DNA of 8,067 bases from a virus (Duplodnaviria > Heunggongvirae > Uroviricota > Caudoviricetes): IMG/VR virus record IMGVR_UViG_2703718825_000004; one strand, given 5' to 3'. Under the pieces are notes generated by a model. That model saw only the letters and a list, made by a program, of their open reading frames with translations, was not told the DNA's origin and did no database searches. Made by a program: the position numbers and the translations under genes. This document shows, piece by piece, positions 33 through 6,855 of this stretch; the stretch's first letter is position 1, and every line of letters begins with the position of its first letter.

Positions 33-188
33 TTACTCCTCAGGTTCGTAAGCTGTGAAGACAGCGACCTCCGTCTGGCCGGTTCGGATTCGTACCTCGC
101 AGAGGTCTTTCCTCGTTACCAGTGCCGTCACTATGACGGTTAAACAGATGACGATCAGGGCGATTAACATCGCCTTTTGCTGCTTCAT
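33..188 (-). CDS. hokD: Hok/Gef-family type I membrane toxin (HokD/RelF-like), 51 aa
   Basis: Minus-strand translation MKQQKAMLIALIVICLTVIVTALVTRKDLCEVRIRTGQTEVAVFTAYEPEE matches, from memory, HokD/RelF and the Hok-family pattern (one TM helix, RKDLCEV...TGQTEVAVF...YE). AAGGAG Shine-Dalgarno lies about 9 nt upstream of the ATG at 188-186. Imperfect GC-rich hairpin in the 3' region (about 3-29). Sequence identity is recalled, not searched. Confidence 0.85.
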   Translation of the reverse strand: MKQQKAMLIALIVICLTVIVTALVTRKDLCEVRIRTGQTEVAVFTAYEPEE

Positions 189-245
189 AACCTGCTTCTC
201 CTTGCCTTTCGGCGCGTAAGAGGCTAACCTACGTTTGTGAAGCAT
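33..245 (-). CDS. Mok-like in-frame upstream reading frame overlapping hok (70 aa)
   Basis: Same frame as hok, starting at ATG 245-243 (MLHKRRLASYAPKGKEKQV then MKQQ...). This resembles the MokC/HokC arrangement in which mok is an N-terminally extended frame of hok. No convincing SD before this ATG; inference. Confidence 0.4.
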   Translation of the reverse strand: MLHKRRLASYAPKGKEKQVMKQQKAMLIALIVICLTVIVTALVTRKDLCEVRIRTGQTEVAVFTAYEPEE

Positions 246-431
246 AGATTGGGCCTCAGATTAATGTTAAGCGTCTTGCAGGACGCGTAATGTTAACTGG
301 GGCTTTTCTCTGTCTGCCTTACGGTGGCATGCCCGAGGCAGACAGCCTCAAGCACCCGCAGCAATTCTACTTAACTCTCGCTTTACAGCAAACCGTTTTG
401 CCCGATATGGGAATTCCCATACGGAATGAAT

Positions 432-536
432 TCAGTTCCCCAGGCGCTCCATCAAAAACACAACCAGGCAGTAAACACCCACAACAGCAATAACAGCCAG
501 AGCGCCTTCCATTACCAGTGAAATATCATCCGACAT
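432..536 (-). CDS. 34-aa small hydrophobic (single-TM) protein, unknown function
   Basis: Below the 60-aa cutoff of the ORF track. ATG at 536-534 is preceded by AAGGGAGGG (strong SD); stop TGA at 434-432. Translation MSDDISLVMEGALAVIAVVGVYCLVVFLMERLGN has an acidic N-terminus and one predicted TM helix. Sigma70-like promoter upstream on the minus strand (about 600-570: TTGCTA-N17-GTATAT). Confidence 0.35.
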   Translation of the reverse strand: MSDDISLVMEGALAVIAVVGVYCLVVFLMERLGN

Positions 537-645
537 ATTCCCTCCCTTGGTGTGAATCCCGGCGAACGTTTTTACCCCCACCGACAAATAACATATACTA
601 GAAAAGCAATAGCTATAGCAACGCCTGCAAATGCATCTGGCCGGC

Positions 646-1209
646 TCATTGGTTCTCCCCCTGTGTCGCTTCTACTGCGATCTGACTGGCGTATTCGTTA
701 ATGGTAACGATAAGTTCTTGCTCGGCCTCATCCAGACAACTACCGATACCTCGCCTGTCCACTTCAGAAGCATCGAAATCTGCACGAAGCCTGGCGACCT
801 TCAGGATTGCGGACAACACCTCATCAGGGATTGCCGGAGAGTTGGTTGACGTTTCCGAGATTATCCGAAAATTATTGGTTGACGAACCCTTATTTTCCCG
901 AAAGTTTCCAGCCTGAAGCATGGCGGCGCGGTGACACCAGATAATCCAGCCAAGCGCCATATCCCATGCCATGTATTCTCTATCGCCATTTTTTGCTCTG
1001 CGGCGATCTACAGATTCCCCGAAACGCTTCTCCATAAATAATTCATAGGCTGCCCGTTCATCCGATACTGATGCCAGTGATGCCAGTGCAATTTTTAATG
1101 CGGTAAGCATGTTGTTTTGATCTTCATCGAGTCCGAACGGTATTTCATCCCGTGATGACTCAATTCCGGTAATCGTGTACTGTAGCCATTCTTTGGTTAA
1201 TTCAGTCAT
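646..1209 (-). CDS. Hypothetical phage protein, 187 aa, unknown function
   Basis: Intact ATG-initiated ORF. Preceded by an AT-rich region (1261-1335) and two hairpins in the 5' leader. I do not recognise the protein family. Confidence 0.6.
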   Translation of the reverse strand: MTELTKEWLQYTITGIESSRDEIPFGLDEDQNNMLTALKIALASLASVSDERAAYELFMEKRFGESVDRRRAKNGDREYMAWDMALGWIIWCHRAAMLQAGNFRENKGSSTNNFRIISETSTNSPAIPDEVLSAILKVARLRADFDASEVDRRGIGSCLDEAEQELIVTINEYASQIAVEATQGENQ

Positions 1210-6802: not shown

Positions 6803-6855
6803 TTTCTGGTGACGTTTGGCGGTATCAGTTTTACTCCGTGACTGCTCTGCCGCCC
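6803..6855 (+). ncRNA. dicF: DicF small regulatory RNA (ftsZ-targeting sRNA of the Qin-type dicB operon)
   Basis: Sequence TTTCTGGTGACGTTTGGCGGTATCAGTTTTACTCCGTGACTGCTCTGCCGCCC matches the 53-nt DicF sequence as I recall it, followed by a T5 tail (6856-6860). It sits immediately upstream of dicB as in K-12. Confidence 0.85.

What the first reader, a model, noticed from the sequence alone, without database searches (positions are those of the whole stretch)
432..645. Unannotated 34-aa hydrophobic small protein with its own promoter and a strong RBS beside hok
This ORF is below the 60-aa cutoff but has one of the best ribosome-binding sites in the window (AAGGGAGGG) and a sigma70-like promoter (TTGCTA-N17-GTATAT) about 40-70 nt upstream. 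The product has an acidic N-terminus, one TM helix and a short C-terminal tail, the profile of small membrane regulators or type I toxins. It occupies the position where relBE sits in K-12, immediately upstream of hok, and is the strongest candidate in this window for an undescribed small protein.
Basis: seen in the sequence. Interest (0 to 1): 0.6.

Follow-up and report, generated by a model that had tools for sequence, protein, structure and literature searches.

The report
Small membrane protein beside hok
The 34-codon gene is real, translated and selectively maintained, and in every prophage copy examined it lies just upstream of the hok/sok toxin cassette, but it was annotated in 2001 (ECs2755) and its function is still unknown.

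Summary
The ORF is real. It lies on the minus strand, ATG at 536 and stop at 434-432, and encodes MSDDISLVMEGALAVIAVVGVYCLVVFLMERLGN. Its Shine-Dalgarno AAGGGAGGG (549-541) ties for the strongest in the window.

It is not unannotated. The window is prophage Sp14 of E. coli O157:H7 Sakai, and the ORF is ECs2755 (NP_310782, WP_001278460), a 'hypothetical protein'. Published ribosome profiling (Huecker 2017) shows strong translation in uninduced lysogens: translatome RPKM 885, ribosome coverage value 6.79, coverage 0.95.

My comparisons give dN/dS of 0.10-0.21 in this frame only. AlphaFold2 predicts a single helix. No Pfam, NCBIfam, PHROG or PADLOC family matches. The family is tiny and confined to E. 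coli prophages, with a 34-aa and a 29-30-aa subfamily.

In all 157 IMG/VR loci with enough sequence, a hok locus follows directly, although the flanks fall into 28 upstream and 17 downstream clusters. Only about 22% of hok loci carry it.

The proposed promoter lies inside a second conserved hydrophobic ORF of 25-27 aa (649-572), which RefSeq does not annotate.

The type I toxin reading is disfavoured. The best reading is a lysogen-expressed single-pass inner-membrane protein that travels with hok/sok.

The parts
432..536 (-). ORF B = ECs2755: 34-aa single-pass membrane protein MSDDISLVMEGALAVIAVVGVYCLVVFLMERLGN (stop TGA at 434-432)
   Evidence: ORF listed. Annotated as WP_001278460.1 / ECs_2755. 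dN/dS 0.10-0.21 in this frame only. Published RIBOseq: translatome RPKM 885, RCV 6.79. AlphaFold2 gives a single helix.
541..549 (-). Shine-Dalgarno AAGGGAGGG of ORF B
   Evidence: -11.8 kcal/mol against the 16S tail, tied best in the window. Conserved as AA(A/G)GGAGGG in all long-type variants while the rest of the 35-nt spacer diverges. Huecker 2017 lists an SD 3 bp upstream, dG -6.4.
572..649 (-). ORF A: 25-aa hydrophobic ORF MSRPDAFAGVAIAIAFLVYVICRWG, unannotated in RefSeq, whose ATG overlaps the stop of ECs_2756 (ATGA)
   Evidence: Intact in 88 of 90 loci, always with an ATGA overlap, downstream of at least three unrelated upstream genes. A frame-preserving 6-nt indel is present. dN/dS 0.13-0.27, frame-specific. 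A homologue lies directly before hokW in phage 933W.
657..662 (-). Shine-Dalgarno-like GGGGAG for ORF A, inside the 3' end of ECs_2756
   Evidence: Read from the sequence. -9.4 kcal/mol.
593..621 (-). Not supported as a promoter; this is ORF A coding sequence.
   Evidence: Not called by the consensus scan. The -10 matches 2 of 6 positions. The -35 is absent from L008 and L007.
402..424 (-). Palindrome CCGTATGGGAATTCCCATATCGG between the ORF B stop and the hok promoter; no T-run follows it
   Evidence: Forms the main hairpin in the fold of 445..340 (overall z-score only -1.63). Partly conserved in L008. Absent from Tritos-type loci. No terminator was called.
364..391 (-). Inferred hok promoter (-35 TTGCTG 391-386, 16-nt spacer, -10 TAGAAT 369-364), placing the hok mRNA 5' end near 357
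   Evidence: The homologous TTGGCG-17-TAGAAT was called in Tritos and HannyBb. The Rfam sok/hok-leader model begins at 357. The window hexamers are read from the sequence; the assignment is an inference.
33..357 (-). hok/mok/sok type I toxin-antitoxin locus (mok 245..33, hok ATG at 188). The Hok protein is 100% identical to K-12 HokD.
   Evidence: Pfam HOK_GEF 3e-23. Rfam RF01794 114.9 bits. Hok alignment.

Best explanation
ORF B (ECs2755) is a genuine, translated 34-residue protein that forms one transmembrane helix in the inner membrane. It belongs to a small family without a name, confined to E. coli lambdoid prophages. The family has two subfamilies, of 34 aa and 29-30 aa, with the core A-[IV]-x-x-V-x-[AG]-[IV]-Y-C-L-x-V-x-L-[MWI]-[DE]-R-L-[GS]-[DN].

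It lies in the early-right (nin-like) region. It forms one mobile cassette with the hok/sok locus that starts 8-40 nt after its stop codon.

Shown: it is made in ordinary, uninduced lysogen cultures. Its mRNA is far more abundant than that of the upstream early genes, so it behaves like a moron and not like a lytic gene.

Inferred: it most likely acts as a membrane-embedded modulator that binds another membrane protein, not as a toxin. Because of its one-way dependence on hok, the single most likely partner pathway is Hok itself, for example by tuning or buffering Hok insertion or oligomerisation. I put that at about 35%. A host membrane protein or a superinfection-exclusion role is about equally likely as a class.
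For: Coding and translated:
- All 90 long-type loci are intact, in 9 nucleotide haplotypes.
- dN/dS is 0.10-0.21 in frame 0 (binomial P 0.0025 and 7e-5), against 0.66-2.6 in the two other sense frames.
- dN/dS is 0.24-0.35 against the 64%-identical short subfamily.
- The Shine-Dalgarno is among the strongest in the window.
- RIBOseq for ECs2755 (PMC5597208 S2 table): LB transcriptome RPKM 132.6, translatome 885.0, RCV 6.79, coverage 0.95.
- The paralogue XECs145 / ECs_5710 gives translatome 346.1, RCV 4.35, coverage 0.99.

Membrane helix:
- Hydropathy; AlphaFold2 helix 2-33, pLDDT 89.5; PredictProtein 'inner membrane, 1 TM'.

Expressed in the lysogen:
- Upstream short genes ECs2758, ECs2760 and ECs2765 have transcript RPKM of 5-9, against 133-168 for ECs2755.

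Cassette with hok:
- hok follows in 81 of 81 long-type and 76 of 76 short-type IMG/VR loci with enough sequence.
- It also follows in Tritos, HannyBb and E. coli TA447.
- The flanks fall into 28 upstream and 17 downstream clusters.
- Hok is 100% identical where ORF B is only about 54% identical.

Narrow family:
- 14 hits among 1.84 billion representative proteins; 24 clusters, all E. coli.
Against: - No function has been tested anywhere. No main-text mention of ECs2755 or of the peptide was found.
- hok does not need it. Of 80 Hok-sampled loci only 18 carry ORF B, and 32 carry none of the three small ORFs. K-12, Rac-SA53, P1 and PPompW lack it.
- Adjacency could be mere physical linkage of a 105-nt gene 8-40 nt from the hok promoter, or reflect a young gene born at that junction.
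- Hok is invariant while ORF B varies, so there is no co-variation to support an interaction.
- No promoter or transcription start site has been located, and no terminator separates ORF B from hok.
- Sakai carries three near-identical copies, so some RIBOseq reads may be shared between them.
Confidence: 0.55

Rival explanations
1. It is an independent prophage moron. The small inner-membrane protein acts on a host membrane protein, or blocks superinfection (DNA entry), and is next to hok only because the two are physically close at a module junction.
For: - It is expressed and translated in uninduced lysogens.
- It is a single TM helix.
- hok frequently occurs without it.
- Hok is invariant while ORF B diverges.
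- The same slot is used by two unrelated small hydrophobic ORFs, ORF A and a 59-aa two-TM ORF, which suggests a permissive insertion site.
Against: No ORF B copy without hok was seen in 157 loci, despite 28 upstream and 17 downstream flank clusters. A freely acting moron would be expected to appear elsewhere in mosaic lambdoid genomes. No similarity to any PADLOC or PHROG family.
Confidence: 0.3
2. It is itself a type I toxin, a second membrane-damaging peptide beside Hok, held in check by an undetected RNA antitoxin.
For: It is small, hydrophobic and sits in a prophage next to a known type I system. These are the general features used to nominate type I toxins in Fozo et al. 2010 (PMC2887945).
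Against: - It is strongly translated in healthy exponential cultures (RCV 6.79 and 4.35), the opposite of a repressed toxin.
- Synonymous sites vary freely (pS 0.46-0.55). The 35-nt leader is not conserved apart from the Shine-Dalgarno, so no overlapping antisense RNA or structured 5' UTR is being preserved.
- No antisense promoter was called in the window. The one 9/12 match in Tritos is at chance level and is not conserved.
- Net charge is -3, with no basic or aromatic tail.
- No hit to Hok, Ldr, Fst, Ibs or other toxin models. hhalign against Hok gives probability 1%.
Confidence: 0.08
3. The ORF works in cis. It is an upstream ORF whose translation or transcription controls read-through into hok, or occludes the hok promoter, and the peptide itself is unimportant.
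For: The stop codon lies 8-40 nt from the hok -35 and no terminator lies between them. A palindrome follows the ORF in long-type loci.
Against: Selection acts on the amino-acid sequence (dN/dS 0.1-0.35). The motif is conserved between subfamilies that are only 64% identical in DNA. The palindrome is absent from short-type loci, and the fold is not significant (z -1.63).
Confidence: 0.05

Closest known systems
Bacterial small single-pass inner-membrane proteins that modulate larger membrane proteins (for example MgrB, AcrZ, MgtS; reviewed in PMC12648545)
   Same: Under 50 aa, one TM helix, a strong ribosome-binding site of its own, translated under normal growth, and no enzymatic domain possible.
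   Different: No sequence relationship to any of them (no NCBIfam or Pfam hit). It is prophage-borne, confined to E. coli, and no partner is known.
Hok/Gef type I toxins (Pfam PF01848) and other type I toxins (Ldr, Fst, Ibs, ZorO; Fozo et al. 2010, PMC2887945)
   Same: A small hydrophobic peptide with one TM segment and a cysteine inside the helix, located in a prophage, next door to hok.
   Different: No homology (hhalign probability 1%). The N-terminus is acidic where Hok's is basic, and there is no periplasmic domain. There is no antisense RNA signature. It is highly translated in growing cells, whereas type I toxins are repressed.
Prophage morons that encode small membrane proteins expressed from the lysogen (for example HK97 gp15 superinfection exclusion; recalled from general knowledge, not tested here)
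   Same: It lies inside a lambdoid prophage. Its transcript level in the lysogen is well above that of neighbouring early genes, and it is predicted to be in the membrane.
   Different: The classical moron has its own promoter and terminator. Here no terminator exists and no promoter has been located. No exclusion phenotype is known.
relBE at the same position in K-12 Qin (relB-relE-hokD)
   Same: It occupies the slot immediately upstream of hokD, with the same downstream synteny: hok, a small gene (rem or a 279-nt hypothetical gene), the DUF968/ydfU gene, then Q.
   Different: It is unrelated in sequence and kind. In K-12 the hok leader, mok and sok are missing (recalled from Pedersen and Gerdes 1999, not re-read here). 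In the window they are intact.

Membership tests
Hok/Gef family (PF01848) | Sequence match to the HOK_GEF profile | tested here: not met
   No Pfam or NCBIfam hit for ORF B at E<=1, while the neighbouring hok scores 3e-23. Profile-profile hhalign of ORF B against Hok gives probability 1.1%.
Type I toxin-antitoxin system (generic) | Small hydrophobic membrane peptide | tested here: met
   34 aa, GRAVY 1.40, one TM helix.
Type I toxin-antitoxin system (generic) | An antisense or trans RNA antitoxin with conserved complementarity to the toxin mRNA | tested here: not met
   No antisense promoter was called. Synonymous sites are unconstrained, and the leader is not conserved apart from the Shine-Dalgarno. 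Rfam finds only sok, downstream. A trans sRNA cannot be excluded.
Type I toxin-antitoxin system (generic) | Translation repressed during normal growth | tested here: not met
   Published RIBOseq: RCV 6.79 with coverage 0.95 (ECs2755) and RCV 4.35 with coverage 0.99 (XECs145), both in LB.
Type I toxin-antitoxin system (generic) | Toxic on overexpression (membrane depolarisation) | not testable with these tools
   Needs an induction experiment.
Small membrane-protein regulators (MgrB/AcrZ/MgtS kind) | 50 aa or fewer, a single TM helix, and actually translated | tested here: met
   and RIBOseq.
Small membrane-protein regulators (MgrB/AcrZ/MgtS kind) | Binds and modulates a defined larger membrane protein | not testable with these tools
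   No partner is known.
Prophage moron | Located in a prophage and expressed in the lysogen independently of the lytic promoters | tested here: inconclusive
   It lies in Sakai Sp14. Its mRNA RPKM is 133-168, against 5-9 for upstream short early genes in uninduced cultures. No transcription start site is available.
Prophage moron | Flanked by its own promoter and terminator | tested here: not met
No terminator-like site was found in 1-1400, and no promoter was called upstream on the minus strand.
Any curated protein family (Pfam, NCBIfam, PHROGs, PADLOC) | Significant profile match | tested here: not met
   Best hits are at chance level, E 0.027-0.053.

The most novel reading that the evidence does not exclude
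In many lambdoid prophages hok/sok is not a two-part system. It carries one or more facultative small membrane proteins in a fixed slot just before the hok promoter: ORF B, ORF A, or a 59-aa two-TM ORF. These proteins would act on Hok in the membrane, as a protein-level antidote, chaperone or timer. That would add a protein layer to a classic RNA-controlled type I toxin-antitoxin system.
Probability: 0.15. Interest if true: 0.7.

Novelty: new member of a known kind. Interest (0 to 1): 0.35.

Why it matters
Small membrane proteins are under-studied, and prophages of pathogenic E. coli carry many of them. This one is among the better-supported cases. It has an annotation, published ribosome-profiling evidence, purifying selection and a clean family motif, so it is a sound target for a functional study.

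As far as I can tell, the strict one-way linkage to hok/sok is a new observation. The same slot is used by two other small hydrophobic ORFs. Together these make a concrete question testable: do prophage hok cassettes carry protein partners that tune Hok?

If they do not, the gene is simply one more uncharacterised moron.

Tried and rejected
I used the 51-aa upstream-extended ORF instead.
- tblastn of the peptide against deposited phages gave only three weak hits because of the low-complexity filter. Those hits led to the short subfamily.
- DNA search of deposited phages matched only the hok leader and the 3' end of ECs_2756, not ORF B.
- A scan of one genome per species found no copy.
- Searches of paper text for the RefSeq accessions, the peptide and the ECs locus tags found nothing.
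- Pas sRNA lead: PasA is often within 10 kb of Sok, but it lies next to the lysis genes and has a terminator, so it is not this locus.
- EDL933 transcription-start tables: the held supplement files are truncated before 2.79 Mb, so no start site could be read.
- No supplements are held for Fozo et al. 2010.
- Homology of ORF B to Hok is rejected.
- The K-12 Qin region has no ORF A or ORF B homologue.
- An antisense promoter after ORF B in Tritos (TTAACT-18-TAAAAT) is at chance level and absent from the window.
- The hairpin after ORF B is not a terminator, because it has no T-run, and the fold is not significant.

Full report
**What is in the sequence**

The ORF is on the minus strand. Its ATG is at 536 and its TGA stop at 434-432. 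The product is MSDDISLVMEGALAVIAVVGVYCLVVFLMERLGN.

AAGGGAGGG at 549-541 is a very strong Shine-Dalgarno. Its duplex energy with the 16S tail is -11.8 kcal/mol, tied best among 14 genes of the window. Only 4 of 293 ATGs on either strand do as well.

The peptide has three acidic residues before a hydrophobic stretch of about 18 residues, and a five-residue tail. AlphaFold2 on a six-sequence alignment gives one continuous helix over residues 2-33, pLDDT 89.5.

**Genomic setting**

The setting is the early-right arm of a lambdoid prophage, read on the minus strand. It runs from a cI-like repressor (+ strand) through cro- and cII-like genes, O, P and a DUF1627 protein to several small genes and a 187-aa protein.

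After the 187-aa gene come a 25-codon ORF (here called ORF A), the 34-codon ORF (ORF B), and a complete hok/mok/sok locus. The hok locus scores Pfam HOK_GEF 3e-23 and Rfam sok 114.9 bits at 357-183.

**It is already annotated, and translation is on record**

The region is 100% identical to many O157:H7 and O26 genomes. It lies in prophage Sp14 of strain Sakai, where the ORF is ECs_2755 / NP_310782.1. RefSeq annotates it as hypothetical protein WP_001278460.1 in every copy I opened. UniProt lists it as uncharacterised, and it is seen on at least 1000 contigs.

Huecker et al. 2017 (PMC5597208) measured RNA-seq and RIBOseq in Sakai. Values are in the order transcriptome RPKM / translatome RPKM / ribosome coverage value (RCV) / coverage.

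| Gene | Condition | Values |
|---|---|---|
| ECs2755 | LB | 132.6 / 885.0 / 6.79 / 0.95 |
| ECs2755 | BHI | 167.7 / 116.7 / 0.76 / 0.99 |
| ECs2755 | cold and salt stress | 164.6 / 3.8 / 0.02 / 0.65 |
| XECs145 (Sp6 copy) | LB | 79.1 / 346.1 / 4.35 / 0.99 |

- The Sp6 copy is 32 of 34 residues identical. It is that paper's 'novel gene' XECs145.
- The XECs145 model starts 60 nt too far upstream, at an ATA. RefSeq now carries the copy as the 105-nt ECs_5710.
- Upstream short genes of Sp14 (ECs2758, ECs2760, ECs2765) have transcript RPKM of only 5-9.
- So ORF B is transcribed and translated in uninduced lysogens, well above its early-operon neighbours.
- Caveat: Sakai has three similar copies, so some reads may be shared between them.
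- No paper text mentions the gene, its accessions or its peptide.

**Independent evidence that it codes for protein**

- Ninety loci with the long form carry 9 nucleotide haplotypes, all intact.
- Between the window and a gut-metagenome variant (L008) there are 11.5 synonymous and 10.5 non-synonymous differences, dN/dS 0.21, binomial P 0.0025.
- Between L006 and L008 there are 14 synonymous and 7 non-synonymous differences, dN/dS 0.10, P 7e-5.
- The two other sense frames give 0.66-2.6.
- One antisense frame also looks constrained, but it shares third positions with frame 0 and contains stop codons.
- A 29-30-aa subfamily is only 64% identical in DNA, yet gives dN/dS 0.24-0.35 over the shared 27 codons. 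Phage Tritos is one example: MVLVLKCALAIAAVMAIYCLAVVLMDRLSD, GTG start, Shine-Dalgarno ACAGGAGG.

**The family**

No Pfam, NCBIfam, PHROG or PADLOC model matches.

A profile search of 1.84 billion representative proteins returns 14 hits, all from these two subfamilies. A word-indexed search returns 24 clusters, all E. coli. One genome per species gives nothing, and K-12 Qin has no homologue.

The shared core is A-[IV]-x-x-V-x-[AG]-[IV]-Y-C-L-x-V-x-L-[MWI]-[DE]-R-L-[GS]-[DN]. It is not related to Hok (hhalign probability 1%).

**Linkage to hok**

- Every long-form locus with enough sequence has the hok locus 243-246 nt downstream, measured from the ORF B stop to the hok ATG: 81 of 81. That count includes two loci where hok is interrupted exactly at its Shine-Dalgarno, and one with a tandem duplicate of ORF B.
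- Every short-form locus does too, 76 of 76 at 210-212 nt. So do Tritos, HannyBb and E. coli TA447.
- Across these loci the DNA further upstream falls into 28 clusters, and the DNA beyond hok into 17. ORF B and hok/sok therefore move as one cassette through mosaic prophages.
- The dependence is one-way. Of 80 IMG/VR loci sampled by Hok, 18 have ORF B and 15 have ORF A alone. Another 15 have a third small hydrophobic ORF of 59 aa, and 32 have none of these.
- Hok is 100% identical between the window, K-12 and Tritos, while ORF B is about 54% identical.

**The promoter claim**

TTGCTA (621-616) and GTATAT (598-593) are in the sequence. But GTATAT matches TATAAT at 2 of 6 positions, and the scan did not call the site.

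The stretch is coding sequence of ORF A (649-572, MSRPDAFAGVAIAIAFLVYVICRWG).
- Its ATG overlaps the stop of the upstream gene as ATGA in 88 of 90 loci. That holds downstream of at least three unrelated upstream genes.
- It keeps its frame across a 6-nt indel.
- It shows frame-specific dN/dS of 0.13-0.27.
- In the diverged L008 copy the peptide is kept while the TTGCTA is gone.
- ORF A also lies directly before hokW in phage 933W, without ORF B.

The expression data still argue for some promoter nearer than pR, but I could not locate it. The EDL933 transcription-start tables held here are truncated.

**How it most likely works**

Shown: it is a translated protein under purifying selection, forms one TM helix, is expressed in the lysogen, and is always beside hok.

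Inferred: it acts in the inner membrane by binding a partner. I think the classical type I toxin reading is unlikely, about 8%, for these reasons.
- The ORF is heavily translated in healthy cells.
- Its synonymous sites and leader are unconstrained.
- No antisense promoter is conserved.
- Its net charge is -3.

A purely cis-acting upstream ORF is unlikely, about 5%, because selection is on the peptide.

That leaves a Hok-related accessory (about 35% as a specific hypothesis) or an independent moron acting on a host membrane protein or on superinfection (about 30%). The data do not decide between them. The one-way linkage, and the reuse of the slot by other small hydrophobic ORFs, lean towards a Hok connection. 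The invariance of Hok, and the many hok loci without ORF B, lean against it.

**Verdict**

The finding is real and the anatomy is largely as described. But the gene has been annotated since 2001 and was shown to be translated in 2017, and the proposed promoter is actually another small gene.

What is new here is the family definition, the evidence of selection, the strict linkage to hok, and the unannotated ORF A. Interest is moderate.

Noticed in passing
window 572-649 (-): ORF A, a 25-aa hydrophobic ORF (MSRPDAFAGVAIAIAFLVYVICRWG). Its ATG overlaps the stop of ECs_2756. RefSeq does not annotate it. It is conserved (27 aa in most relatives) with frame-specific dN/dS of 0.13-0.27. It also lies directly before hokW in phage 933W (L093 1118-1201).
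   Followed up: partly
L182 263-442 and 14 similar loci among L181-L260: A third small hydrophobic ORF occupies the same slot before hok in 15 of 80 Hok-sampled prophage loci. It is 59 aa with two TM segments: MKNALQFLFVAFWLFVSCMPIIFTARYMEKVDVLILIFGYINALFLGVFMAVMCIEYWR, Shine-Dalgarno AGGAGGA.
   Followed up: no
L006 1323-1534 (E. coli O55:H7 TB182A): A tandem duplicate of ORF B. The second copy starts with TTG, two bases after the first copy's stop, and has no obvious Shine-Dalgarno. Both copies are annotated in RefSeq.
   Followed up: no
L013 and L063, about 235 nt after the ORF B stop: The sequence departs from hok exactly at the hok Shine-Dalgarno (GGCAAGGAGA|TGTATGGG...). The junction is the same in two loci with different ORF B haplotypes. 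It looks like an insertion or replacement that inactivates hok while ORF B stays intact.
   Followed up: no
window 402-424 (-): Palindrome CCGTATGGGAATTCCCATATCGG between the ORF B stop and the hok -35. No T-run follows it. It is partly conserved in long-type loci and absent from short-type loci, where the ORF B stop is 8 nt from the hok -35.
   Followed up: partly
window 6804-6855 (+): A DicF sRNA homologue (Rfam RF00039, 76.7 bits) on the other side of the immunity region.
   Followed up: no
L095 998-1287 (phage HannyBb, PP925841): The deposited annotation places two minus-strand ORFs over the unannotated short ORF B (1088-1177, +) and the hok leader. These calls are probably spurious.
   Followed up: no
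Sakai NC_002695.2 about 1,550,900-1,551,066 (L261 1663-1767): Huecker 2017's 'novel gene' XECs145 is the Sp6 paralogue of ORF B. It was modelled from an ATA 60 nt upstream of the real ATG, so it overlaps ORF A out of frame. RefSeq now lists it as the 105-nt ECs_5710.
   Followed up: yes
window 36-188 (-), L098 5123-5275, L002 2799-2951: The Hok protein is 100% identical between this prophage, K-12 HokD and phage Tritos, although the DNA immediately upstream is unrelated or only 64% identical.
   Followed up: partly
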